Origin: a virus
Length of the DNA: 64,000 nucleotides
Strand: one strand, 5' to 3'
Virus record (IMG/VR): IMGVR_UViG_3300035703_000038
Location: 1-64,000 of that record
The notes under the pieces are model-generated. The model was not told where the DNA came from, searched no databases, and saw only the letters and a list, made by a program, of their open reading frames with translations. This document shows, piece after piece, positions 23,541-36,229 of the stretch. A program made the position numbers and the translations under genes. How positions within the stretch are numbered: position 1 is the stretch's first letter; every line of letters begins with the position of its first letter.

Positions 23541-25340
23541 ATGGCTAATGGATTCCTTACAACATCGGAACTAGATTTCCAAAACTACAAATCAAGCCTA
23601 AAAACATTCCTATCTCAGCAGGATGTGTTTAAGGATTACGATTTTGAAGGATCTAACATGGCTGTGTTGCTGGATCTGCTAGCATATAACACCTACATGA
23701 ATGGTGTCTACCTAAACATGGTAGGCAGTGAAATGTTCTTAGACACTTCTCAACTACGCGAATCAATCGTTTCTCATGCTAAAGAGTTAAACTATACACC
23801 ACGTTCTAGAACAGCTGCTACTGCATTTGTTGATATTACAATTACACCATCTGATGCACCTGATTCAATTACAATTCCAAAGTACTACGAGTTGAATGGT
23901 AGAACAGAAGATAACACAACCTACTACTTTACAACTGACGAAGCTGTAGTTATTAGAGCAAACAATGGTGTGTATAAGGCTGCCAATGTTGCTGTATACG
24001 AAGGTAACATTGTAAGAGAAGTATTTGTTGCCAATGCATCAACTCGCTATCTATTACAATCAGCCAATGTTGATATTCAATCAGTAGATGTCACTGTTAA
24101 GGATTCAGCTGCTGCTACAGAAGAAGTCAAGTGGAATAGAGAGACATTCTTGTTTGGATTAGATAACACAGATAATGTGTACTTCATCCAAGGTGCAGAA
24201 GACCACTTGTTTGAGCTTGTATTTGGTAACGGTGATATTGGTAAGTCGTTGGTGGATGGCAATGTTGTTACTGTCAACTATAGAGAAACAAATGGTTTAG
24301 ATGCCAATGGTGTTGAGACATTTACAGCACCTAATGCAATTCAAGGCTATACAAATATTTCTATTGCTACAGTTGTAGCAGCTGCATCAGGCTCCGAACA
24401 TGAGACGGATGAAGAAATCAAATTTAATGCTCCTAGATACTTCCCAACACAAAATAGAGCTGTAACAGTTGAGGATTATATTGCGTTAACAAAGCAAGCA
24501 TTCCCATCTCTAGAAGTTGTTACAGCATATGGTGGTGATGAGGTAGAGCCAAAGCAGTACGGTAAAGTTATCGTTGCTGCTAAGCCAGTTGGTGGCACGA
24601 AGCTCTCTACACCTCTAAAGACTCAGATGTACAACTATCTGAAAGAGAGATCATCTATCTCTATTGACCCAGTTATTGTGGATCCAGAGTACTTCTTTGC
24701 AGAAGTTGTTACTGAAGTTCTATACAATATTAACCTAACAGCGAGATCAGCAAGAGATATCCAGGCTCTTGTGGAAGAAACTATTGCCACATGGGGTAAT
24801 GATAATCTTGAGAAGTTTGGTTCCGATCTAAGATACTCAAAGCTAGTTAGAGCAATCGATGATTGCGAAGATGCTATCATTAGTAATAACACTGAATTGA
24901 GATTGTTCAAACTAATTGAAGTCGATACAGGCATCCCATTCAGAATTTCTCTATCATTTGAAAATGAGCTGAAGCAAGAAATATCCTCGACAAGAAAGAT
25001 TTACGAAGATACAACATCAACAATTGAAACATCACTGTTTACATACAACTTAAACAATGTAGATTATCTTGCCAAGATTAAGGATGACACACAGGGTAAC
25101 CTTGTCCTCGTATCAACTGTTAATGGCCAGGTTCAATTGTTGAAGGATAAGATTGGTACTATTAATTATTTGACTGGTGAACTATCAATTGGTGAGCTAG
25201 TATATGAGGATGTTGGTACCAATGGCGAGCTTGAAATCTACGCAAGAACAAAAAAGCTTGACCTAGAAACAAAAGCCAATAAGATTCTACAAATTGATTC
25301 TGCTCGTCTTGTTGTTACTGTAAATGGTATTAGAGAGTAA
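23541..25340 (+). CDS. gp6: baseplate wedge subunit (gp6)
   Basis: LDF...K..L..FL..Q..F.DYDFEGS....LLD.LAYNT; QNRAVT..DY. Confidence 0.95.
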   Translation: MANGFLTTSELDFQNYKSSLKTFLSQQDVFKDYDFEGSNMAVLLDLLAYNTYMNGVYLNMVGSEMFLDTSQLRESIVSHAKELNYTPRSRTAATAFVDITITPSDAPDSITIPKYYELNGRTEDNTTYYFTTDEAVVIRANNGVYKAANVAVYEGNIVREVFVANASTRYLLQSANVDIQSVDVTVKDSAAATEEVKWNRETFLFGLDNTDNVYFIQGAEDHLFELVFGNGDIGKSLVDGNVVTVNYRETNGLDANGVETFTAPNAIQGYTNISIATVVAAASGSEHETDEEIKFNAPRYFPTQNRAVTVEDYIALTKQAFPSLEVVTAYGGDEVEPKQYGKVIVAAKPVGGTKLSTPLKTQMYNYLKERSSISIDPVIVDPEYFFAEVVTEVLYNINLTARSARDIQALVEETIATWGNDNLEKFGSDLRYSKLVRAIDDCEDAIISNNTELRLFKLIEVDTGIPFRISLSFENELKQEISSTRKIYEDTTSTIETSLFTYNLNNVDYLAKIKDDTQGNLVLVSTVNGQVQLLKDKIGTINYLTGELSIGELVYEDVGTNGELEIYARTKKLDLETKANKILQIDSARLVVTVNGIRE

Positions 25341-27334
25341 TGAGACAACTAGAAAGTTACATTTCACCATTTATTGCTGATCAGTTTCCTTCAATCTATA
25401 AGGAAGAAGGTCCTCTATTCATTGCTTTCGTCAAGGCATACTTTGAGTGGCTAGAATCAAATGGTCAAGTTGTAAATGATTCAAGACGCTTGCTCGAATA
25501 TAGAGATATTGATAAGACAGTAGATGAATTTGTCAACCAATTTAAAAAGAAGTATATGTTCCCTATCCCAGAAGATATTGCTGGTGATAAGAGACTACTA
25601 CAGAAGCACATCAAAGAAGTATACGGATCAAAGGGTACAGAACGTGGCTTGAAGCTTCTGTTCCAGCTACTGTTTGGTGATTCAATCAGTGTCTATAGAC
25701 CTGGCGATGATGTTTTCAGATTATCAGATGGTGATTGGAGTAGAGACATCTACCTCGAGGTTGCCTATAAGCCATTCAATTCACTATTTGTTGGTGAGTT
25801 TATCAGAGGACGTATCTCTGGTGCCCGTGCCTATGTTGCAAGCTTCCAGACAAAATATGTTAATAATAAAAACATTAACATCTTCTATTTAACTGATGTT
25901 CAAGGCAACTTCCTATACGATGAAGTAGTTCTTATTGATGAAAATAGATTGGCACCAGGCGTTGCCCCAGCTGTATCTGCTGTCAACTCACCAAAAATTA
26001 TTGGCTCACTAACAGAAGTAGATGTAACAAATAGATCATCTCCATTTGGATACACAGTTGGTGAACAACTTGAAGTCCAAGGCTCAGGCAAAGGTGGTAA
26101 GGTTGTTGTTACGAGTTTGCAAGAGCTAGATGGTACTGTATCATTTTTCCTAAAGGATGGTGGTTCAGGTTATACAGTCAACACAACAGTATTCACAATA
26201 TTTGGTCCAGTCACAGGTGTTGTGGTAGAGGCTGGTGGCTCAGGATACGCAAATTCTGACTACCTAATATTTTCTAATGGCACATCACTTGGATATGCCA
26301 ATCTTGTAACGAATAGCTCTGGTGGTATTCTCAATAATACTGCAACTGGCCAGACATACTTCTCAGTCACCAATGGTGGTAACGGATTCCAAACAGCACA
26401 GACATCCGTTGTAGTTACCATTGCCAACTCAACTGGTGGTGTATCAGGTGGTGTTGGTGCCAATCTAGTACCTACAATTGCTGGTGGTGGCGATGGCGCT
26501 GCTCTGAGAATTGGTGGGCTATCAGATCTTAAAAGTATATTTGGTTCCATTGTAAAAATTAATGCTATTGGTCAAACTACAACATATCTTCCTACAGCAA
26601 ACAGTTATGATGATATGGTTATTGGTACACCATCCTACCCAACAGGCACAGGCTATGGTTTGTCATCCAACGTTGCTGCTGGCTTTGATACAATCTTGGC
26701 CGATGCATTGGATTACAAAATCTACGAAGTTGGCACAATATCTAAAATCTTTACTGTCAATCCAGGTTCTGATTATACAACAAACTTGACTGTTACTGCT
26801 GTGGATACATTAATTAGTCAGTTTAAATTTTCCGACCAAGAACATCCTGCCGGTAGAGGACCAACTGGTAGTGGTAGACTTGGTAATAATGCCATCGTTA
26901 CGGCTGTTACAGGATTTGGTTCAGATGCACTTGGTTCTGTTAAAGTAATTGACTCAGGCTTAGGTTATGAGCAAAATGAAGAAGTAACTCTTGTATCTCT
27001 TTCAAATACAAACCTTGTTACCTCTGGTACAGCTCTACTTTCAAAGCAGGGTCAAGGTCAAGGTGAGTTCAAATCAACAAGAGGGTTTTTGAGCTCAGAT
27101 AAGTACATACATGACAGTTTTTATTATCAAGACTATTCGTACGAAGTTAGATCGTCAATTGTGTTTAATAAGTACAGTGATCTGTTAAGAAAATTATGGC
27201 ATCCAGCAGGTGTAGAGAAATTTGGTCGCGTGTTGGTAAGTAGTGAAGTAACAGTTGCCACTCCAGATATCAATACACAAGGATATGTTGGTGATGGTAG
27301 CACAACAACGTTTGGCATTCCTGGTGGGGCATGA
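25340..27334 (+). CDS. gp7: baseplate wedge initiator (gp7-like)
   Basis: QFP.......P.F..F..AY..W; Y.SKGT...L..LF; DS.YYQDYSY; HPAG...FG; follows gp6. Confidence 0.8.
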   Translation: MRQLESYISPFIADQFPSIYKEEGPLFIAFVKAYFEWLESNGQVVNDSRRLLEYRDIDKTVDEFVNQFKKKYMFPIPEDIAGDKRLLQKHIKEVYGSKGTERGLKLLFQLLFGDSISVYRPGDDVFRLSDGDWSRDIYLEVAYKPFNSLFVGEFIRGRISGARAYVASFQTKYVNNKNINIFYLTDVQGNFLYDEVVLIDENRLAPGVAPAVSAVNSPKIIGSLTEVDVTNRSSPFGYTVGEQLEVQGSGKGGKVVVTSLQELDGTVSFFLKDGGSGYTVNTTVFTIFGPVTGVVVEAGGSGYANSDYLIFSNGTSLGYANLVTNSSGGILNNTATGQTYFSVTNGGNGFQTAQTSVVVTIANSTGGVSGGVGANLVPTIAGGGDGAALRIGGLSDLKSIFGSIVKINAIGQTTTYLPTANSYDDMVIGTPSYPTGTGYGLSSNVAAGFDTILADALDYKIYEVGTISKIFTVNPGSDYTTNLTVTAVDTLISQFKFSDQEHPAGRGPTGSGRLGNNAIVTAVTGFGSDALGSVKVIDSGLGYEQNEEVTLVSLSNTNLVTSGTALLSKQGQGQGEFKSTRGFLSSDKYIHDSFYYQDYSYEVRSSIVFNKYSDLLRKLWHPAGVEKFGRVLVSSEVTVATPDINTQGYVGDGSTTTFGIPGGA

Positions 27335-30300
27335 GCAATATAACGGTTAAAGTAAATGGAGTACTTCAGGTGCTTGGCACCGATTACACCATTTCTGGTA
27401 ACAATGTTGTATTTACGACAGCACCCGCTGCCAATAGTAAAATTGAAATTCGTAAAGAAGCAGAAAGAACTGCAATTGAAACAAGCTTCAAGATCCAGCA
27501 GGTATTCTTAACTCAGCTTGTAACTTCCTATGCAACAGAAACAACTGTTACAACTACATTTGCTACAGCAACTGGCCAGGTCACACTCACAGCTTATGTT
27601 ACTGATGTAGATACATCTAGAACAACCAACTCAGTATTTGGCACTAGCAAATCAACATCAACTAGCTACCCAACAGTATTTAATACTGCATATGGAACAA
27701 CAAAGAACACAGCTTCTCAGTATGTAACGGCTTACGAATCTGGATTCCAAACAGTGACTGTATTTGATACAGATATCAATACGGCTGTTGACACAACAAG
27801 AACAACCAATACAACATTCCCAACCTCTTTGGCTACTGCCACATCACAATCAACAGTTACGGTTGTTAACTTTAACACAACATACAGTACAGACCAGACA
27901 ACAACCACTGCATTTGAGACAGCTTATAGCACGGTATTTAATACAACAACTGCATACGAAACAAATAGAACAACTGTCTTTGATACAAACCTATTAACAG
28001 CAACATCTAGACAGACAGATACATCTAAGCAAACATCTAGCGTATATGACACTACATATTCGTCTTTCTATGCTACAAGTACTACATTTGACACAGTTAT
28101 CAATACAGCTGTCAACACATCCAAGTCAACAGATACAAGCCAGGCTACAAGTAAGTCAACAAATACGACTACAACATTTGTAACTATTTTTGAAACAGCT
28201 GGCTCAACATCAAGAAACACAGCCACTGTATATGACACAGTGTTTGATACAAACAGGTTGACTGGTACAACAATCAATACAACATTTGATACTATTATTG
28301 GCACAAGTAAGGCCACAAGCACATCTAAATCAACAACATCTGTATTCAACACATCAACAACATTTGATACAGTGTTTGATACTGGCTATGATACATCCAA
28401 GTCAACTACATCAGTATTCAATACAACAACGTCATTCAATACTGTATTTGAAACAAACTTTGGCACTACGACTGCTTTTGATACAAACAGAGCTACAGAC
28501 ACATCAAAAAATACTGCTACTAGTAAAAGTACAACAACAGCCTTCAATACAATTACATCTTATGATGTAACTACAACATTTGTTACTGCCTATAATGCTG
28601 CAACTGTTTATATTACGACACAGGGTGCTGACACTGCTAGATCAACAAGCAGAATAACAGATACAAATAGATCCACAACAACTGCTTTTGATACTACAAC
28701 AACTTATGGTACAACATTCTATTTTATTACCAGCAAGCAGACAGATACTAGCAGGCAAACAGATACAAGCAAGAGCACATCAACTGTATTCAATACTATA
28801 ACAGCATACGATACGTTAGTTGCAACTGCTGTTACTAAGAGTACTACAACATCTTTCAATACAATAACAACGTTCAATACAACGTATGATTCCACATACA
28901 ACACAACTTATTCAACAGACTCAGGAACTACACAGCAGACAGACACATACAATAGTGGATCTGGTAACGTAACTGCTCCAGCTGGTGCCACATCCGTAAC
29001 TATCAAGGTTTGGGGTGGCGGTGGTGGCGGTGGCTGTGGTGAAACGCGTAGTGCCGGCGATCTTGGCGGCGGTGGTGGTGGCTCAGGTGCCTATGTTGAG
29101 AAGACAGTTTCTGTAACTGGTGGCTCAACATCATTTTCATATTCTGTTGGTTTAGGTGGTGGTGGATTTGGTAACCCTCCAGGTGCCAATGATGACGATT
29201 CGTTTGCAACAGGTGATGCTGGTGGACAGTCAACTGTAACTGGTACTGGCGTCAACATGGTTGCTCCAGCAGGTAATGGTGGCCAGTGTGCTTATTATGA
29301 TTCATTTGGTGATATTGTAACTGGCGGTGTAGGTGGATTTGGTGGCTTTGGCGCTAGTGGCGGTGATACAAACACGGATGGTAATGCAGGTAACCAGGGT
29401 GGTATAAACTTTGGTGGCCAAGGTGGTAGTGCTCCAAGTGGTGGCACTGGTGGTGCTGGTGGTACAGGTACTGGTGATGGTTCAACTGGTGGCGCTCCAG
29501 GTGCCGGTGGTGGCGGTGGCGGTGAGAATGATGGTAGTGGTGGTAATGGTGCTGATGGTCGCGTTGAGTTTGTTTGGACTATCTCCACAACAACAATCAC
29601 AACAAGATCAACAAGTGTATCGACATCAAAGTCTACAACACTATCAACTGGCACATCTGCATCTACAACAACTGCTTATAGTGTTGACACAGCCTACCCA
29701 ACAAGTAGAACAACATCCACATCTAAGTCAACAACTACTGTATTCCAGACCGCAACTACATTCCAGACAATAACATCATTCAATACTGGTCTTGGTGGTA
29801 CAACAAGCAGGGCTACTGGCACAAGCAGATCAACAGTATCTGTATTCCAGACAACATCGACATATGATACCTCATATGGTACTACATTCTACTTCAACAC
29901 GAGTAAGGGCACCACATTCTACTTTAATACAAGTAGAGCAACTACTGTAGCCCAAGCAACAGGTACAAGTAGAGGCACAACAACTGTATATGATACAAGC
30001 ACAATATTCCAAACATCCACTATATTTGGTACAAGTGCTGCAACCACAACAGTGTTTAATACAGCTAGAGGCACAAGTGCTGTAACAGCAACATCAAAAT
30101 TAACAACAACAGCCTATAATACTGTTGTTGCCACATCTCTTGCAACCAGCAGAACAACAGCAACATCTAAATCAACTACAACTGTATTTGATACTACAAC
30201 TGCATTTGACACAGCTTATGCTACAAGTAGATCAACTGTTAAGAATACAACAACTACATTTGAAACAAACATCAGCACAAATAAGCAGACAGCTACAACA

Positions 30301-33300
30301 TTTACTACAACATTTAATACTGCAGCTGCCACAGGTTTAGCAACATCAACAACTACAACCTATTCAACTGTTTATTCTACAACAACAACTTATAACACAG
30401 GTTACGATACTGCATTTGCAACAAATCGTAATACCGACACATCTGTAATTACAGTTAAATCGACAAGTAAACAAACAGCCTCTGTATTTCAGACTGCTAC
30501 CACATTTGATACAAGCACTGCATTTGAGACTTCTAGATCAACAGTATTTGACACTCTAATTGCTACTAGCACGTCGCGCGATACAGTTATTGGTACTGCT
30601 AGAAGCACACTATCAGCATTTGAAACAACTATTGGTACATCTTCAAATAAGTCAACAACAACTGTCTATAATACAACAACAATCTTTGACACATCAAGAC
30701 AGACAACATCTATATTTGTAACTGGCTATAACACTGCATACGCCACAAACAAGCTAACCAACACGAGTGTGTTCACTACAGGCGTAACAACAATAATTAC
30801 ATCTACGGCATTTGATACTGTGTATGAAACTAACAGAAACACAGCAAGAAACACCACAACTGCCTATGATACAAATTTTGACACAACAACTGCATTTGAA
30901 ACAGTTGTTGATGAATCTAGAAACACAGCCACTGTATTCAATACAAATACATCCTCATCTCTACAAAGAAATACAGATACAGCAATTCTGACTGAATATA
31001 GAATTCTTGCTACACAAACCGTGTATAGCTCAACATACCAGACATTCTATGAAACTATTGCTGGTGTGCTAACATCTGTTGATACAAATGTTACGACAAG
31101 TAAGGTAACAGATACTGCTTATGTTGCTCAGAATAGAAACACGTTACGTGACACAGCATATCAAACAACAAACCCTACTGTAGTTCAGACAAGCACTCTA
31201 GGTAACACAAGTGCCACTGTCATTTTTAACACGACATTTGTAACATATGACACAGCCTTTGCAACTAGCAAGTCAACTACGTCTGTATTCAGCACATCAT
31301 ATGAAACTGTAGCTGGTACATCCAAGTCAACATCGACTGTTTACGATAGTGTATTTGATACAACAAAACAAACAACAATTACGACAGATACAGCTTCACC
31401 AACATCTAGATTGACAGCTTATGGTACAGGCACAAGCAGAACAACAACATCCGCTTTCTCTACAGTCATAACAACGACATATGGAACAGGTTATAATACA
31501 TCTAAGACAACCGATTCTGTCTATGTGACAGCATTCTTAACTGTATCAACATTTCAAACATCACCTCTTACTTCAGTATCTACATTACTGTCTAAGACAA
31601 CAGAGACATCAACGTTCTTTGCTACATCACAAGCAACAGATAAGAATACACTAACAAGCAGATCAACAGTTTATGTAAGTGGTGTATCGACAACTTCTCG
31701 TACAACAGAGTTTGCTACAGCAACATCAATCAATACAAGCTATGATACAAGAAGAGGTACTGATACTACAACTCAATATGAAGGTACGACTGTATTTGCT
31801 ACTGTATATGATACAAATCTAAATGTTGGCACAACAAGAATAACAGATGTTGCTACCTCAACAGCATACAACACTGTTATTAATACAGCAAGAGATACAG
31901 AAGTTGCTACAAGTAAGAATACAACAACAGCATTTGATACTGATACAGCAATACAAACATCATTTGATACAACAATTGCTACACAGTCAAGTTCTAGCAC
32001 TGCCTATGCCACAAACATTAGTACAAGTAAGTCAACAAGCTCAGTATTTGATACAACTTATGAAGTCAATACATCAACTAGCAAGTCAACGACTACTGCT
32101 TATCAAACAATATTCCAAACATCTAGAAATACAAGCACTGCTTATCAAACACTATTCAATACAGTGTATAGGGATACTGCTCTAGATACTGATGTAACCA
32201 CAACTACCGCTAAGGCAACAACTGGTGTAACAGGCACATCCACTATATCTGCAACATCAAGGACAACGACATATATTACAGAAGCACTGACAGATACGAC
32301 GTATCTAATGTCGAGCTCATATGCCACATCTACTGTATTTGAAACAGTTGTAGGATCTTATTACTTGACAGTGTTTGATGGTACGACAACATACGACACC
32401 AACTCTGGTGCTGGTACAATGAAGTCTACTTCTAAAACAACCAGCCTATCAAGAGCTACATCAACATACTTTGAATCAGCTTATGTAACATTGTTCCAAT
32501 CAACAACAGTGTTTGCAACTGATATCACAACAACAGGTATTAAGTCAACAGCAAGCAGATACCAAACAGACCTAGGCCTAGGTACTCTAAGAGACACAAT
32601 TGTCTTTACAAATGTCTACACCTCAACAAGTAAGACAACTGCAACAGGTACTGGCTTCAATACAACAACGACATATGATACTGGTATCCAAGCTGTTACA
32701 GATGTGCTGACTGCCGAAACAAAGAATACATCATATGATACTCTAACAAGATATGATACAGTTATCAACACAACAACATCATATCTATCATCATACTCAA
32801 CAATTGTTGATACGTCAAGAACTACATTAACTTCGACTGCCTTTGATACTTCTAGGGCAACTGCAACCATCTTCCAGACTGACTCTGGTGCTGGTACATT
32901 GCGTAACACATCTTTAAGTACAACAACAGCATTTGAAACTGTGTTTGTAATTACTCAATCATCTAAGTCAACTACAACAACATTCAATACAATTTCAAGA
33001 TATGACACAGCTCTTGATACAGATGTTTCTACAGCTACAAGCAAATCGACAGTTAGTGCTTATACAAGATTTGAAGGTGGTAGAACAACATCAACCGTAT
33101 TCAATACAGGGTATGAAACATTACCATTAGCCATCACAGTTGTTGGTACAACAAGATCAACAGCAACAGTTATTGTTACTGCATACCAAACATCATCTGC
33201 TACAGCTTATGATACAACTAGAGCAACAAACAAAACAACAACTACTGCATTTGAAACAACATACGGTACCGGTATCTTAACGGCAAGAGACACTTATACG

Positions 33301-34158
33301 TCTACAACAACTTCAACTGCATTCTTAACAGAATCAGCAAGATTGACCAATACTGTTTATAAGAACACTGCATTTGATACAGATGTGACAACTGCCACAA
33401 TTACTCAATTTGCTACAGAAACATCAAGAAACACAGCTACTGTTATCTCAACTGATACAACAATATCTACAACAACGGCTGGTGGTGCTACAACATCAAC
33501 TTCGTTCCAAACTGCAACACTAACATCCACATCATTCTATACAACTACTATAACGATTTCTGACTTGTTAACATCTAAGACAACAACAACAGGCTATGAG
33601 ACATCTTCATATATTGATACAACAATAGCAACTGTTTACCAAACATTAACACAAGTAGCCACATTAATTAATACAGTTGGCGTAACTCAGTTTGACACAT
33701 CTAGAACGACAGATGTTGAAATTGACTTCTCTGTTAGAGCAACAAGCTTCCAAACATTGACAGTTGTAGATACGTCAACAGCCTATGTCACCGGTAGCAG
33801 AATCACTCAGCGTTCTACAACAACATTGAGAAATACTGATACAGTTGAATATGTTAGAGATACAACAAGAACATCTGATCCAAATACAGTATACCAGACT
33901 AGCACAGTGTTCCTAACAACTACAGGCTCTGGTCTAGATACAGATAAGGTAACATCAAGACAGACTGACACAGAAAGATCAACATCATTTGTAACGGCCT
34001 TTGATACAACTACAACTTACCAGACAGATTCTGGTGCTGGTACAATGAAGTCAACATCCAAGGCTACAGCAACATCCAGAGCAACTGACCAGCAAGTTCA
34101 GACAAGCTATGATACTGCTATTCAGACAACATATGAAACTGTTTATATAAATAATTAA
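27331..34158 (+). CDS. giant Thr-rich self-complementary fibre protein with an internal glycine-rich head (possibly a C-terminal extension of gp7)
   Basis: 2275-aa ORF built from T-x-[FY]-x, T-x-[KR]-x and T-x units; Gly-rich domain at residues ~530-752; located between gp7 and gp8. Confidence 0.85.
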   Translation: MSNITVKVNGVLQVLGTDYTISGNNVVFTTAPAANSKIEIRKEAERTAIETSFKIQQVFLTQLVTSYATETTVTTTFATATGQVTLTAYVTDVDTSRTTNSVFGTSKSTSTSYPTVFNTAYGTTKNTASQYVTAYESGFQTVTVFDTDINTAVDTTRTTNTTFPTSLATATSQSTVTVVNFNTTYSTDQTTTTAFETAYSTVFNTTTAYETNRTTVFDTNLLTATSRQTDTSKQTSSVYDTTYSSFYATSTTFDTVINTAVNTSKSTDTSQATSKSTNTTTTFVTIFETAGSTSRNTATVYDTVFDTNRLTGTTINTTFDTIIGTSKATSTSKSTTSVFNTSTTFDTVFDTGYDTSKSTTSVFNTTTSFNTVFETNFGTTTAFDTNRATDTSKNTATSKSTTTAFNTITSYDVTTTFVTAYNAATVYITTQGADTARSTSRITDTNRSTTTAFDTTTTYGTTFYFITSKQTDTSRQTDTSKSTSTVFNTITAYDTLVATAVTKSTTTSFNTITTFNTTYDSTYNTTYSTDSGTTQQTDTYNSGSGNVTAPAGATSVTIKVWGGGGGGGCGETRSAGDLGGGGGGSGAYVEKTVSVTGGSTSFSYSVGLGGGGFGNPPGANDDDSFATGDAGGQSTVTGTGVNMVAPAGNGGQCAYYDSFGDIVTGGVGGFGGFGASGGDTNTDGNAGNQGGINFGGQGGSAPSGGTGGAGGTGTGDGSTGGAPGAGGGGGGENDGSGGNGADGRVEFVWTISTTTITTRSTSVSTSKSTTLSTGTSASTTTAYSVDTAYPTSRTTSTSKSTTTVFQTATTFQTITSFNTGLGGTTSRATGTSRSTVSVFQTTSTYDTSYGTTFYFNTSKGTTFYFNTSRATTVAQATGTSRGTTTVYDTSTIFQTSTIFGTSAATTTVFNTARGTSAVTATSKLTTTAYNTVVATSLATSRTTATSKSTTTVFDTTTAFDTAYATSRSTVKNTTTTFETNISTNKQTATTFTTTFNTAAATGLATSTTTTYSTVYSTTTTYNTGYDTAFATNRNTDTSVITVKSTSKQTASVFQTATTFDTSTAFETSRSTVFDTLIATSTSRDTVIGTARSTLSAFETTIGTSSNKSTTTVYNTTTIFDTSRQTTSIFVTGYNTAYATNKLTNTSVFTTGVTTIITSTAFDTVYETNRNTARNTTTAYDTNFDTTTAFETVVDESRNTATVFNTNTSSSLQRNTDTAILTEYRILATQTVYSSTYQTFYETIAGVLTSVDTNVTTSKVTDTAYVAQNRNTLRDTAYQTTNPTVVQTSTLGNTSATVIFNTTFVTYDTAFATSKSTTSVFSTSYETVAGTSKSTSTVYDSVFDTTKQTTITTDTASPTSRLTAYGTGTSRTTTSAFSTVITTTYGTGYNTSKTTDSVYVTAFLTVSTFQTSPLTSVSTLLSKTTETSTFFATSQATDKNTLTSRSTVYVSGVSTTSRTTEFATATSINTSYDTRRGTDTTTQYEGTTVFATVYDTNLNVGTTRITDVATSTAYNTVINTARDTEVATSKNTTTAFDTDTAIQTSFDTTIATQSSSSTAYATNISTSKSTSSVFDTTYEVNTSTSKSTTTAYQTIFQTSRNTSTAYQTLFNTVYRDTALDTDVTTTTAKATTGVTGTSTISATSRTTTYITEALTDTTYLMSSSYATSTVFETVVGSYYLTVFDGTTTYDTNSGAGTMKSTSKTTSLSRATSTYFESAYVTLFQSTTVFATDITTTGIKSTASRYQTDLGLGTLRDTIVFTNVYTSTSKTTATGTGFNTTTTYDTGIQAVTDVLTAETKNTSYDTLTRYDTVINTTTSYLSSYSTIVDTSRTTLTSTAFDTSRATATIFQTDSGAGTLRNTSLSTTTAFETVFVITQSSKSTTTTFNTISRYDTALDTDVSTATSKSTVSAYTRFEGGRTTSTVFNTGYETLPLAITVVGTTRSTATVIVTAYQTSSATAYDTTRATNKTTTTAFETTYGTGILTARDTYTSTTTSTAFLTESARLTNTVYKNTAFDTDVTTATITQFATETSRNTATVISTDTTISTTTAGGATTSTSFQTATLTSTSFYTTTITISDLLTSKTTTTGYETSSYIDTTIATVYQTLTQVATLINTVGVTQFDTSRTTDVEIDFSVRATSFQTLTVVDTSTAYVTGSRITQRSTTTLRNTDTVEYVRDTTRTSDPNTVYQTSTVFLTTTGSGLDTDKVTSRQTDTERSTSFVTAFDTTTTYQTDSGAGTMKSTSKATATSRATDQQVQTSYDTAIQTTYETVYINN
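34146..34153 (+). promoter_or_regulatory. T4 late promoter
   Basis: TATAAATA upstream of gp8. Confidence 0.8.
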
Positions 34159-34180: not shown

Positions 34181-36229
34181 ATGTTAACAAGATTCAAGCG
34201 CAATATTGTTGATTGTTTTATAGGCTCAGTGAGTAATACGCTGAGCGTTGAGCTGTCTGGTACTGTAACTGTCAATAGCTCTTGCACAACTGTAACAGGC
34301 ACAGGAACCAATTTCACATCTGATTTTGGTCTAGAAGATAGAATCTATATTGGTTCGCAATCTAGACAAGTAGTTTCAATTGCCAACGATACATTAATGA
34401 CAGTTGGCACACCATTTAGTACAAATGCAGCAGCCAACGTTTACCAAAAGGGTAAATTAGATAATAATGGTTATTATGTTTTTGCAGCCAGACAATCACC
34501 ATATCTAAATGACGATGTTGCCGCAAATACAATTGATAATGATTATGAAGGACAAACATTCCTACATGATGAATTGATGTTTGGTAGGAAGATTACTGAT
34601 ACTGATGTTGTACCAGTAGTTTCAAAAAAGAGCTGGCAGTCAAATACAATCTATAGCATTTACGATGATAAAGATACATCATTAATAGAAAAGAATTTCT
34701 ATGTTATTACATTTGAAAATAAAGTATACAAATGTATCTACAATAACAATGGCTCATCTTCTATAATTGAGCCAAGCCACACGCAGACAGGATTCCCTCC
34801 AGCTGAATCGGATGGATATAGATGGTTATATCTTTACCAGATAACAAATGATCAGCTATTAACATTTGGCACGGATAATTACATTCCTGTATTTGAAAAT
34901 ACAGATGTTAAGAAAGCTGCCATTGATGGTTCTATTTTTAATATCGCTGTAGAAGCTAATGGTTCTGGTTATCCAGCACATAGTGGTGTTATTGGTACGA
35001 CAAGCAATACGCAAATTGTAAAAATTAGCGATAATGCATCAACAGCTAATGATTTCTTTAGCAACTGTGCTATTACAATTACTAACGATTCAACAAACTA
35101 TACGTATGTAAAGGAAATCAGAGATTATGTTTCCAATAATAGTGGTAAGTTTGTTGTTGTAAAAATTCCATTTGCTAATGGACAGATTGCTAACAATAAT
35201 CCATATTCGATTGCACCATATATTAAGATTGAATCAAAGACTGGTTCAAACTGCGTAGCATATGCTGTCATGCAGAATGTTTCAAATACAACATTTGTTG
35301 GTAGCATAGAGTCAGTTGAGATTCTAAGTCCAGGCAGAAATTATAGACAAGCCAATGTAACAGTACAGACATCTGTTGGCTTTGGTTCTGGCGGTGAGGT
35401 TAGAGCAATCATATCACCACCTGGTGGCCATGGGCATGATGTTAAGAATGAGCTATACTGCCAAGCCGTTGGTATTGGTGTTGAGTTCTCAAACTCAGCA
35501 TTGCTAAATTTCTCATCTGATGTAGAATTTAGAACAGTTGGTTTGATCAAGAACCCATTATCAGCTAACACATTAATAACACCAGATGGTGTGGTTAATC
35601 TTGTTGCTAACAGTTTAAATGTTACTGGTTCCCAAACTAAGTTCACCCAGCAAGTAAACATTGGCGATTATTTAATCTATGCAGATGAGGAGAAAGAAGT
35701 TGCTGACATTACTAGCGACACTGCTCTCACATTAAAATCACCATTCTCGTATACAGTAGTTGCTGAATCATACGACGTTAGAAAGAGATATTCAAACTCA
35801 TATTTCAATCAAACTGTGTATGTTACAGCATCCAACACTACACCAACTCTACTCCAGGTTGGAGAGTTTGTGGTTGGTTCAGATGGCGCTGGTGGCGGCT
35901 CTCAGTCGAGGGGTAAGGTTGCATTTGCCAACACTTCTAAGATAGTTCTAACAGGACTAAATAAGAGTGAGACTCGTGGCTCAGCCAATGCAAAGATATT
36001 TGTAAATGACACACTAGTTGAGGGTGTTGGGTATGATGTTACATCAACTGCAACACCATTCATCGCTGCGTCAGGAGCTAAATACTCTAAGGTAGCAGGA
36101 AATAACTACATCACAAGAATACCTGATGTCAAATTATATTCTGGTGAGATTCTATATGTTCAGAATCTACTACCAGTACAAAGATCAAATACAACTAATG
36201 AACAAATTAGATTGATTATTAAGTTCTAG
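34181..36229 (+). CDS. gp8: baseplate wedge subunit (gp8-like) with inserted beta repeats
   Basis: W.....Y..YD; NFYV......VYKC..N; DGY.W.YLY; PPGGHG; YSGEILY..N..PV.R....EQI.LII.F. Confidence 0.88.
   Translation: MLTRFKRNIVDCFIGSVSNTLSVELSGTVTVNSSCTTVTGTGTNFTSDFGLEDRIYIGSQSRQVVSIANDTLMTVGTPFSTNAAANVYQKGKLDNNGYYVFAARQSPYLNDDVAANTIDNDYEGQTFLHDELMFGRKITDTDVVPVVSKKSWQSNTIYSIYDDKDTSLIEKNFYVITFENKVYKCIYNNNGSSSIIEPSHTQTGFPPAESDGYRWLYLYQITNDQLLTFGTDNYIPVFENTDVKKAAIDGSIFNIAVEANGSGYPAHSGVIGTTSNTQIVKISDNASTANDFFSNCAITITNDSTNYTYVKEIRDYVSNNSGKFVVVKIPFANGQIANNNPYSIAPYIKIESKTGSNCVAYAVMQNVSNTTFVGSIESVEILSPGRNYRQANVTVQTSVGFGSGGEVRAIISPPGGHGHDVKNELYCQAVGIGVEFSNSALLNFSSDVEFRTVGLIKNPLSANTLITPDGVVNLVANSLNVTGSQTKFTQQVNIGDYLIYADEEKEVADITSDTALTLKSPFSYTVVAESYDVRKRYSNSYFNQTVYVTASNTTPTLLQVGEFVVGSDGAGGGSQSRGKVAFANTSKIVLTGLNKSETRGSANAKIFVNDTLVEGVGYDVTSTATPFIAASGAKYSKVAGNNYITRIPDVKLYSGEILYVQNLLPVQRSNTTNEQIRLIIKF

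What the first reader, a model, noticed from the sequence alone, without database searches (positions are those of the whole stretch)
32350..34158. RNA-like multibranch region: short protein stem-loops capped by a recurring 10-residue loop T[DN]SGAGT[ML][KR][SN]
The C-terminal third uses the same unit alphabet but in short stems. The loop occurs at 32398-32427 (TNSGAGTMKS), 32878-32907 (TDSGAGTLRN) and 34024-34053 (TDSGAGTMKS), with a variant at 32566-32595 (TDLGLGTLRD). The three main copies are flanked by complementary units: TVFD-GT-TTYD[loop]TSKT-TS-LSRA; TSRA-TA-TIFQ[loop]TSLS-TT-TAFE; TAFD-TT-TTYQ[loop]TSKA-TA-TSRA. A second motif, TA[LF]DTDV, recurs three times (the first copy, at ~32175, lies just upstream of this interval). 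Inference: these are standardised turn caps, analogous to RNA tetraloops, in a cloverleaf-like base. Segments I could not pair may pair at long range or between chains.
Basis: partly seen in the sequence, partly recalled or inferred. Interest (0 to 1): 0.75.

Follow-up and report, generated by a model that had tools for sequence, protein, structure and literature searches.

The report
Standard hairpin caps in phage fibre
The last third of a 2275-residue, one-third-threonine baseplate fibre protein of an uncultured T4-like phage carries two recurring turn motifs. They most likely cap short fold-back beta hairpins, because relatives lengthen or shorten both arms of a hairpin by the same number of residues.

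Summary
All four T[DN]SGAGT-type motifs and all three TA[LF]DTDV motifs lie at the stated coordinates, in one ORF (27331-34158, +) between gp7-like and gp8-like baseplate genes.

Evidence that the motifs cap short antiparallel stems:
- I trained a residue-pair matrix only on the protein's long mirror arms (T:T, Phe/Tyr:Lys/Arg). With it, each main motif is closed by a T:T pair followed by 11-14 scoring pairs.
- Only this register scores positive. Cognate arms beat non-cognate arms.
- In about 20 relatives the motif is conserved. Arm lengths of the last hairpin co-vary exactly: (9,12), (13,16), (15,18) seven times, (19,22), (21,24).
- TA[LF]DTDV replaces the SGAGT cap at one orthologous site. 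In a close relative it caps a 20-pair stem that this window has deleted.
- AlphaFold2 on 28 aligned cap modules gives one long hairpin (pLDDT 84).

Not shown:
- No long-range stem closes a "cloverleaf".
- The excess of local hairpins over unit-shuffled sequence is modest (z about 2.4).
- AlphaFold2 fails on the whole region.
- How the hairpins pack is unknown.

The scan found the same motif before on other DNA (note e1-5812057). No paper or solved structure I found describes it.

The parts
27331..34158 (+). ORF of 2275 aa, 30.5% Thr: giant fibre protein encoded directly after the gp7-like baseplate wedge gene and before the gp8-like gene
32350..34158 (+). C-terminal third (residues 1674-2275), the interval of the finding. 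Collinear with the C-terminal thirds of relatives at about 40% identity.
32368..32460 (+). Hairpin module 1: 5' arm 32368-32397, cap TNSGAGTMKS 32398-32427, 3' arm 32428-32460. 11 pairs, 9.8 bits.
32551..32613 (+). Variant cap TDLGLGTLRD (32566-32595) with a weak 6-pair stem (7.4 bits). It lies in a window-specific insertion relative to most relatives.
32845..32943 (+). Hairpin module 3: 5' arm 32845-32877, cap TDSGAGTLRN 32878-32907, 3' arm 32908-32943. 12 pairs, 9.6 bits. The basic and aromatic residues are swapped between arms (R:F) relative to modules 1 and 4. Five relatives and the fragment P0003 have TAAGGGTL or a similar variant at this site.
33985..34095 (+). Hairpin module 4 (the last cap): 5' arm 33985-34023, cap TDSGAGTMKS 34024-34053, 3' arm 34054-34095. 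14-15 pairs, 14.3-16.0 bits. The orthologous hairpin in relatives shows matched arm-length changes.
32164..32205 (+). Second-motif cap, copy 1 (VYRDTALDTDVTTT), closed by T:T, x, F:K, x, T:T. It lies just upstream of the given interval.
32992..33036 (+). Second-motif cap, copy 2 (ISRYDTALDTDVSTA). It occupies the alignment position where five relatives carry TDSGxGTL. Stem of 17 pairs, 10.1 bits.
33355..33396 (+). Second-motif cap, copy 3 (VYKNTAFDTDVTTA), a window-specific insertion. The failed whole-region AlphaFold2 model placed its only hairpin turn here (block pLDDT 59).
33466..33501 (+). Degenerate cap (..TTAGGATT..) that aligns with TDSGAGTLV of the relatives
33874..33993 (+). Window/L073-type insertion on the 5' side of the last hairpin. 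It holds a cap remnant, TTGSGLDTDKV, where relative L073 has a complete 20-pair hairpin capped by VGRDTALDTDVTTA.
34108..34155 (+). Near-invariant C-terminal tail YDTAIQTTYETV[YI]INN, shared by nearly all relatives found

Best explanation
The C-terminal third is built from short intrachain two-stranded beta hairpins. Each hairpin apex is set by one of two standard cap sequences:
- a 9-residue cap, [DN]-S-G-x-G-T-[LMF]-x-x, between two closing Thr residues;
- a 13-15-residue cap around [KR]-D-T-A-[LF]-D-T-D-V-T-T.

The arms use the same cross-strand rules as the protein's long stalks: Thr opposite Thr, Phe/Tyr opposite Lys/Arg or an aliphatic residue, and small polar residues on the other face.

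Inferred mechanism: the Gly-rich cap forces chain reversal and fixes the register of a quasi-repetitive sequence that would otherwise have many near-equivalent alignments. The arms then zip outward from the cap.

Hairpins are gained, lost, lengthened and shortened as units during evolution. Both long stalks return to the N-terminal, gp7-attached end, so this region sits at the base of the fibre (inferred).

Shown: motif recurrence and conservation, arm complementarity, and matched indels. Inferred: the physical hairpin, its exact register, its role in folding and its location.
For: 1. Independent pair matrix. It was trained only on residues 48-530 against 756-1238. T:T occurs 128 times against 57 expected; Phe/Tyr with Lys/Arg 51 times against about 6 expected.
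2. Position of the stems. Stems at the three main caps lie in the top 0.7-2.7% of T:T-closed positions.
3. Instances in relatives. In 28 cap instances from 7 proteins, the pairs are T:T at k=0 (26 of 27 unique), aromatic:basic or aliphatic at k=2 (18 of 27), T:T at k=4 (24) and at k=6 (19). Ten of the 28 have p <= 0.022.
4. Register control. Only shift 0 is positive: +5.2 bits over 8 pairs in 14 of 14 classes. The next best shift gives -0.7.
5. Cognate versus non-cognate arms. k=0-6: 5.28 against 2.54 bits (none of 5000 permutations as high). k=7-12: p = 0.006. k=7-18: p = 0.011.
6. Compensatory indels at the last cap. 5' and 3' arm lengths are (9,12), (13,16), (15,18) seven times, (19,22) and (21,24), with a constant difference in all 11 sequences that lack the extra insertion. 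At the first cap, L033 has (19,15) against (29,25) in five others.
7. Caps are interchangeable. TALDTDV in the window and L033 aligns with TDSGxGTL in five relatives. In L073 it caps a 20-pair stem of 21.3 bits, which the window has lost on both arms.
8. Second protein family. The same cap sits at the apex of a stem of at least 23 pairs (20.5 bits) in another Thr-rich protein family.
9. AlphaFold2 on 28 aligned cap modules (A2) gives strands 2-26 and 32-56 with the turn at SGAGT, pLDDT 84.1.
10. Strand length. Thr parity coherence decays by about 25 residues here but persists in the long arm, as expected for short strands.
11. Copy number. T4 gp7 is a monomer with 6 copies per tail (PMC3004832). 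A gp7-attached chain is therefore likely to pair with itself (inference).
Against: - Within the window alone the signal is modest. Caps 1 and 4 are paralogues. The summed local-hairpin score is only z = 2.4 above unit-shuffled sequence. No single stem exceeds the shuffled maximum.
- The unit grammar T-x-aromatic/basic-x-T is itself nearly palindromic, so part of the T:T symmetry comes for free.
- In about half of the cap classes the arms stop matching after about 7 pairs.
- AlphaFold2 on the whole region failed (pLDDT 29.6).
- The good 59-residue model comes from a paralogue alignment. Only one of its five models exceeds pLDDT 80. I ran no shuffled control. Its strand ends imply a register two residues off the T:T register.
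- Isolated two-stranded ribbons are rare. The nearest solved shapes are hairpins inside oligomeric barrels (best Z 4.7).
- There are no experimental data.
Confidence: 0.65

Rival explanations
1. The hairpins are real but not free branches. Successive hairpins lie side by side as a beta meander, single-layer sheet or compact sandwich domain. This conserved C-terminal domain would dock on the baseplate or on the foot of the stalk, and the caps would be ordinary turns of that domain.
For: - Overlapping candidate hairpins share a strand, for example 1680-1690:1700-1710 and 1693-1711:1719-1737.
- Many invariant non-repeat motifs and an invariant C-terminal tail suggest a specific domain.
- Strand coherence of about 20-30 residues.
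- No long-range closing stem.
Against: - AlphaFold2 found no compact fold.
- There is no Pfam, PHROG or PDB sequence match outside the Gly-rich domain.
- Hairpin lengths vary from 9 to 39 pairs among relatives. That is hard to fit into a fixed sheet.
Confidence: 0.3
2. The chain reverses at the caps, but the arms pair mainly between chains. The region would be part of a trimeric or higher oligomeric beta prism or barrel, as in known phage fibres.
For: - Known phage fibres are mostly trimers (established knowledge).
- The closest solved shapes to the model are hairpins inside oligomeric barrels or rings.
- The T4 gp37 needle is a trimer in which each chain folds back (recalled from the literature, not tested here).
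Against: - The protein follows gp7, which is a monomer with 6 copies per T4 tail (PMC3004832).
- Some relatives are fused to gp7.
- Equal arm lengths and cognate-arm specificity are most simply intrachain.
- The protein has no histidine, so gp37-type HxH iron sites are absent.
Confidence: 0.15
3. There are no hairpins. The motif is only the conserved core of a duplicated sequence module. The apparent complementarity would be a by-product of a palindromic low-complexity grammar.
For: - Caps 1 and 4 are an 86-nt duplication.
- T positions at -6, -4, 0, +10, +14 and +16 are part of the conserved motif.
- Stems in the window do not exceed the shuffled maxima.
Against: - Matched indels of five different sizes.
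- Cognate arms beat non-cognate arms outside the conserved core.
- R:F and F:R swaps occur.
- A different cap sequence occupies the same place.
- A whole stem has been lost on both sides at once.
Confidence: 0.1
4. The Gly-rich loops are functional sites, such as receptor-, glycan- or ion-binding tips, rather than structural caps.
For: - They would be exposed at hairpin tips.
- A chance identical nonapeptide, TDSGAGTMI, occurs in acetylglutamate kinase 3zzf (E = 1.2).
Against: - Receptor-binding loops of phage fibres are usually variable. These are the most conserved residues of the region (S, G, G and T invariant at cap 1).
- They are repeated up to six times per chain.
- An unrelated motif replaces one of them.
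Confidence: 0.05

Closest known systems
Thr-rich C-terminal extension of fused gp7 baseplate wedge proteins, for example Stenotrophomonas phage vB_SmaS-DLP_6 (P0012, about 1288 aa)
   Same: Same genomic role (gp7-linked), the same Thr-rich T-x-aromatic/basic-x-T unit alphabet, and a detectable HMMER match to the window protein (E 4e-6).
   Different: About 1000 residues shorter, fused to gp7, and without a single T[DN]SGxGT or TA[LF]DTDV cap. The capped C-terminal third is specific to the clade of uncultured phages found.
Needle domain of the T4 long-tail-fibre tip protein gp37 (PDB 2XGF; recalled from the literature, not examined here)
   Same: A phage fibre in which the chain runs out, reverses and runs back, giving long thin antiparallel beta structure.
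   Different: gp37 is an intertwined trimer held by HxH-iron sites. This protein has no histidine, no sequence match to any PDB chain and probably one chain per wedge. gp37 has no repeated standard caps.
Elongated single-layer beta proteins: SasG/Aap G5-E repeats and the OspA single-layer sheet (recalled; Aap 8deo_B appears at Z 2.1)
   Same: Monomeric, thin, core-less beta structures stabilised by cross-strand ladders of polar and aromatic residues.
   Different: Three-stranded or multi-stranded domains of fixed length. They have no mirror pairing code, no standard Gly-rich caps and no sequence similarity. The Z score is too low to mean anything.
RNA hairpins closed by tetraloops (analogy only)
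   Same: Variable stems with a pairing rule, a small set of recurrent cap sequences, compensatory changes (F:R to R:F, matched indels) and insertion or deletion of whole hairpins.
   Different: This is a protein. Each strand has two pairing edges, so structures need not be nested. No closing stem or multibranch junction was detected.

Membership tests
gp7-linked giant Thr-rich fibre clade of uncultured T4-like phages (IMG/VR and metagenome contigs) | Gene lies directly downstream of the gp7-like baseplate wedge gene | tested here: met
   Window ORF order is gp6, gp7-like, giant, gp8-like. The six full-length relatives found with the gp7 query have the same arrangement.
gp7-linked giant Thr-rich fibre clade of uncultured T4-like phages (IMG/VR and metagenome contigs) | Collinear C-terminal third with T[DN]SGxGT caps and the tail YDTAIQTTYETV[YI]INN | tested here: met
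   About 40% identity, collinear. Alignment A1. One to six caps per protein, with the tail present in nearly all.
T4 gp37-type fold-back needle | HxH motifs that coordinate iron along the needle axis | tested here: not met
   The composition of the 2275-aa protein contains no histidine.
T4 gp37-type fold-back needle | Sequence or fold similarity to a solved needle | tested here: inconclusive
   Profile searches of PDB sequences gave only chance hits. The structure search of the 59-aa hairpin model gave Z <= 4.7 to unrelated long hairpins.
Beta-solenoid / beta-helix repeat fibre | Direct repeat with a constant period of one rung | tested here: not met
   Autocorrelation of Thr, aromatic and basic residues shows only even-lag (strand) periodicity and no longer period up to lag 40. 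The direct DNA repeats are irregularly spaced.
Pfam PF21722 Gly_rich_2 | HMM match above the gathering score | tested here: met
   31.7 bits against a cut-off of 24.3, but at residues 543-749. That is the tip domain of the long stalk, outside this finding. The caps themselves match no Pfam or PHROG family.
RNA-like nested secondary structure (analogy, not a family) | Stems with complementarity, recurrent caps and compensatory changes | tested here: met
RNA-like nested secondary structure (analogy, not a family) | Multibranch junction closed by a long-range stem | tested here: not met
   The best gap-free mirror segment inside the C-terminal third scores 19.6 bits against 19.6 +/- 2.2 in unit shuffles.

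The most novel reading that the evidence does not exclude
This protein family folds by an RNA-like grammar. Thin two-stranded beta stems would be specified by a residue pairing code, closed by a small set of interchangeable standard caps, and inserted, deleted and resized as whole hairpins. The base of the fibre would then be a bush of free-standing hairpin branches on a single chain. No solved structure or paper I searched describes such a fold class.
Probability: 0.3. Interest if true: 0.85.

Novelty: new variant of a known kind. Interest (0 to 1): 0.6.

Why it matters
If the hairpins are real, this family shows how a very long, low-complexity beta fibre solves its register problem. Strong turn-forming caps would fix the apex, and an irregular sequence of units would act as a barcode for the arms. 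That gives protein designers a natural rule set for long two-stranded beta ribbons: a pairing code, caps, and tolerated unit insertions. For phage biology, it describes an uncharacterised appendage on the baseplate of a widespread group of uncultured T4-like phages. The matched-indel series makes the hypothesis testable with short peptides.

Tried and rejected
Searches that found no relatives or no match:
- Megablast of the interval against phage records: no match.
- Word-indexed protein search restricted to residues 1674-2275: nothing.
- tblastn against phage records and a peptide-pattern scan of viral contigs with the C-terminal third: nothing.
- Exhaustive HMMER search of 1.8 billion representatives: one 91-aa fragment only. 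Compositional filtering probably hides relatives. They were found instead through the neighbouring gp7 gene and a degenerate DNA pattern for the cap.
- Loci found with the gp8-like neighbour carry no Thr-rich gene.
- ESM Atlas: no hit above 0.81.
- PDB sequence profiles: chance hits only.
- Three literature searches found no description of such fibres or caps.

Structure prediction that failed:
- AlphaFold2 on the whole 675-aa region with 7 sequences: pLDDT 29.6, unusable.

Readings tested and rejected:
- The mirror symmetry comes from DNA inverted repeats: none flank the caps.
- The region is a beta-solenoid with a fixed period.
- An alternative register closing a 5-residue DSGAG loop with T0:T6: -0.7 bits against +5.2.
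- Long-range stems inside the C-terminal third.
- The 31-bit match of 258-304 with 1809-1855 as a structural partner. That arm is already paired in the long stalk, so paralogy is the simpler reading.


Full report
Context. The interval 32350-34158 is the last 602 codons of one ORF (27331-34158, +; 2275 aa; 30.5% Thr, no His). The ORF lies in a T4-like baseplate module. A gp6 homologue is at 23541-25340, a gp7-like wedge protein at 25340-27334, and a gp8-like wedge protein at 34181-36229. The only Pfam match in the giant protein is the Gly-rich domain PF21722 at residues 543-749, outside this finding. The window is part of a 101-kb IMG/VR virus record.

The observation. All four loop motifs and all three TA[LF]DTDV motifs are at the stated coordinates, and the quoted flanks are exact. 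The three main loops share a 28-nt core at 82-89% identity. Loops 1 and 4 lie in an 86-nt direct repeat (72%), so they are paralogues and count as one observation. No DNA inverted repeat flanks any loop, so any mirror symmetry exists only at the protein level.

An independent pairing rule. The antidiagonal i+j = 1286 stands out in the whole protein: 131 T:T coincidences. On it, residues 48-530 mirror 756-1238 without a gap. I trained a log-odds pair matrix on that stretch only. T:T occurs 128 times against 57 expected. Phe/Tyr opposite Lys/Arg occurs 51 times against about 6 expected. Phe/Tyr opposite Ile/Leu/Val, and Asp/Asn/Val opposite Ser, are also enriched. The C-terminal third was not used for training.

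Stems at the loops in the window.
- The best register pairs the first T of the motif with the T after it, so the cap is 9 residues.
- Gap-free stems of 11, 12 and 14 pairs follow, scoring 9.8, 9.6 and 14.3 bits. The variant loop has 6 pairs and 7.4 bits.
- Among all T:T-closed positions with a 9-residue loop in residues 1240-2275, these rank in the top 2.0%, 2.7%, 0.7% and 8%.
- Module 3 has the basic residue on the 5' arm and the aromatic on the 3' arm, the reverse of modules 1 and 4.
- The window-only evidence is modest. The summed score of non-overlapping local hairpins is z = 2.4 above a null that shuffles Thr-initiated units (1 of 60 shuffles as high). No single stem of any span exceeds the shuffled maximum.

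Relatives. Direct searches with the C-terminal third failed. The exhaustive HMMER search returned one fragment. Searching with the neighbouring gp7-like protein gave six contigs with a full-length giant gene directly downstream, of 1709-2279 aa. Each carries one to six T[DN]SGxGT motifs, all in the C-terminal third. Their C-terminal thirds are collinear with the window's at about 40% identity. A degenerate DNA pattern for the cap found further members in viral and metagenome contigs. It also found a second Thr-rich protein family with a single cap at the apex of a stem of at least 23 pairs, 20.5 bits. The other Thr-rich ORF of this genome (68544-72059) has no cap.

Tests across 28 cap instances (27 unique, 14 classes at 60% identity).
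- Pair positions: k=0 is T:T in 26; k=2 is aromatic with basic in 15 and with aliphatic in 3; k=4 is T:T in 24; k=6 is T:T in 19. At k=8 both orientations occur (aromatic:basic 5, basic:aromatic 3).
- Sliding the 3' partner: only shift 0 gives a positive mean (+5.2 bits over 8 pairs, all 14 classes positive). The next best shift, -4, gives -0.7.
- Pairing each 5' arm with the 3' arm of another class lowers the score. For k=0-6 the means are 5.28 against 2.54 bits (none of 5000 permutations as high). For k=7-12, outside the conserved core, they are -1.29 against -4.11 (p = 0.006). For k=7-18, p = 0.011.
About half of the classes stop matching after about 7 pairs.

Compensatory indels are the strongest evidence.
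- At the last cap I measured the 5' arm from the conserved DTTRT to the closing T, and the 3' arm from the closing T to the conserved tail YDTAIQ.
- The pairs are (9,12) in L038, (13,16) in L050, (15,18) in seven sequences, (19,22) in L069 and (21,24) in L032. That is five arm lengths with an identical difference every time.
- The outer pairs ([VI]:K, then T:T) stay in register through these changes.
- At the first cap, L033 has (19,15) against (29,25) in five others.
- The window and its nearest relative L073 are exceptions. They carry an insertion on the 5' side only.
- In L073 that insertion is itself a complete hairpin of 20 pairs (21.3 bits, three F:K pairs) capped by VGRDTALDTDVTTA. The window keeps only a remnant, TTGSGLDTDKV, so both arms were lost together.

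The second motif.
- TA[LF]DTDV is the core of a longer motif, roughly [VT]-Y-[KR]-D-T-A-[LF]-D-T-D-V-T-T. Among the seven full-length proteins scanned for it, it occurs three times each in the window and in L033; it is also seen in L073.
- Four or five of the six copies in the window and L033 are closed by the same pairs as the SGAGT caps: T:T, x:S, F:K, x, T:T.
- In alignment A1 the window's second copy and an L033 copy occupy the place where five relatives have TDSGxGTL.
- It is therefore an alternative, longer cap.

Structure prediction.
- AlphaFold2 on the 675-residue region with 7 sequences failed (pLDDT 29.6). Its only strands form a hairpin whose turn falls on the third TAFDTDV copy.
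- On an alignment of 28 cap-centred 59-residue modules, with the window's last module as query, the best model has pLDDT 84.1. The other four models have 75, 66, 59 and 58.
- The best model has strands 2-26 and 32-56 with a coil at SGAGT.
- The symmetric strand ends imply i+j = 58, with D opposite M. That is two residues off the T:T register (i+j = 60). Both registers put the same residues on the same face, so the pairing code could act through directly opposite or diagonal neighbours.
- A structure search of this model returns only generic long hairpins from pore toxins, the phi29 tail and flagellar rings (Z <= 4.7). The Aap B-repeat scores Z 2.1.

What is not supported.
- No long-range stem closes a multibranch junction.
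- The best cross-match between the C-terminal third and the long arm (258-304 with 1809-1855) scores 31.3 bits against a null of 23.0 +/- 2.3. It is most simply paralogy, because that arm already has a partner.
- Overlapping candidate hairpins that share a strand, many invariant non-repeat motifs and an invariant C-terminal tail leave open a sheet-like or compact foot domain rather than a bush.
- Thr parity coherence decays within about 25 residues here but persists across the long arm. This fits short strands and excludes a fixed-period solenoid.

Mechanism.
- Shown: recurrent, conserved caps; complementary cognate arms; arms that change length together; whole hairpins gained and lost.
- Inferred: each cap forces chain reversal and sets the register of a quasi-repetitive sequence, the arms zip outward, and the hairpins sit at the base of the fibre next to the gp7 anchor.
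- T4 gp7 is a monomer with six copies per tail (PMC3004832), and some relatives are fused to gp7. This favours intrachain pairing, but the copy number of this protein is untested.

Comparison and novelty.
- The closest relatives by sequence are the Thr-rich extensions of fused gp7 proteins such as that of Stenotrophomonas phage DLP6. They lack both caps.
- The closest functional analogy among phage fibres is the fold-back needle of T4 gp37 (recalled from the literature). Its defining HxH sites are absent here.
- I found no paper or solved structure describing these caps.
- The scan had already noted the same DSGxG motif in a 2035-aa protein of another genome (note e1-5812057) and the long mirror arms of this protein (e1-6063792, e1-6063793). 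I re-derived the arms and tested the caps independently.
- I rate this a new variant of a known kind: beta-hairpin turns in a phage fibre. There is a real chance that the whole design is a new fold class.

Noticed in passing
L045, L047, L053, L055, L063, L072 (for example L045:1-5178:+): A second family of Thr-rich proteins, with a different C-terminus (...VYDTVVNTEPT), carries one identical cap, TDSGAGTLIN. It sits at the apex of a stem of at least 23 pairs (20.5 bits), and the T:T register persists for about 57 residues.
   Followed up: partly
L073 residues 1542-1595, compared with window 33874-33993: L073 has a perfect 20-pair hairpin (three F:K pairs) capped by VGRDTALDTDVTTA. The window keeps only TTGSGLDTDKV there, so a whole hairpin was lost on both arms at once.
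   Followed up: yes
window 28102-28242 (residues 258-304) versus 32755-32895 (residues 1809-1855): A 47-residue antiparallel match of 31.3 bits between the long stalk arm and the C-terminal third, above the unit-shuffle null (23.0 +/- 2.3, maximum 27.5 of 30). Probably paralogy with the arm's true partner, but a third strand on the stalk is not excluded.
   Followed up: partly
window 32404-32418, 32884-32898, 34030-34044: The five codons for SGAGT are identical (TCT GGT GCT GGT ACA) in all three main caps, although the flanking codons differ. This could reflect codon preference or gene conversion.
   Followed up: no
window 32428-32640: Relative to five orthologues, the window's first hairpin has a 5' arm 14 residues shorter, and its 3' side carries a long insertion that contains the variant cap TDLGLGTLRD. 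The arms are not matched here, so this part of the window protein has been rearranged.
   Followed up: partly
G000:C1:68544-72059 (beyond the window): A second Thr-rich ORF of 1172 aa (36% Thr) in the same genome has no SGAGT-type cap at all.
   Followed up: partly
window 32299-32364, 32764-32808, 32941-32964, 33547-33579, 33715-33744, 33847-33876: Short motifs that break the Thr-unit grammar are invariant or nearly so across relatives: YLMSSS..TVFETVVG, INTTTSYLSSYS, ITQS, TISDLLTSK, IDFSxR, VxDTTRT. Their role (junctions, other turns or docking sites) is unknown.
   Followed up: no
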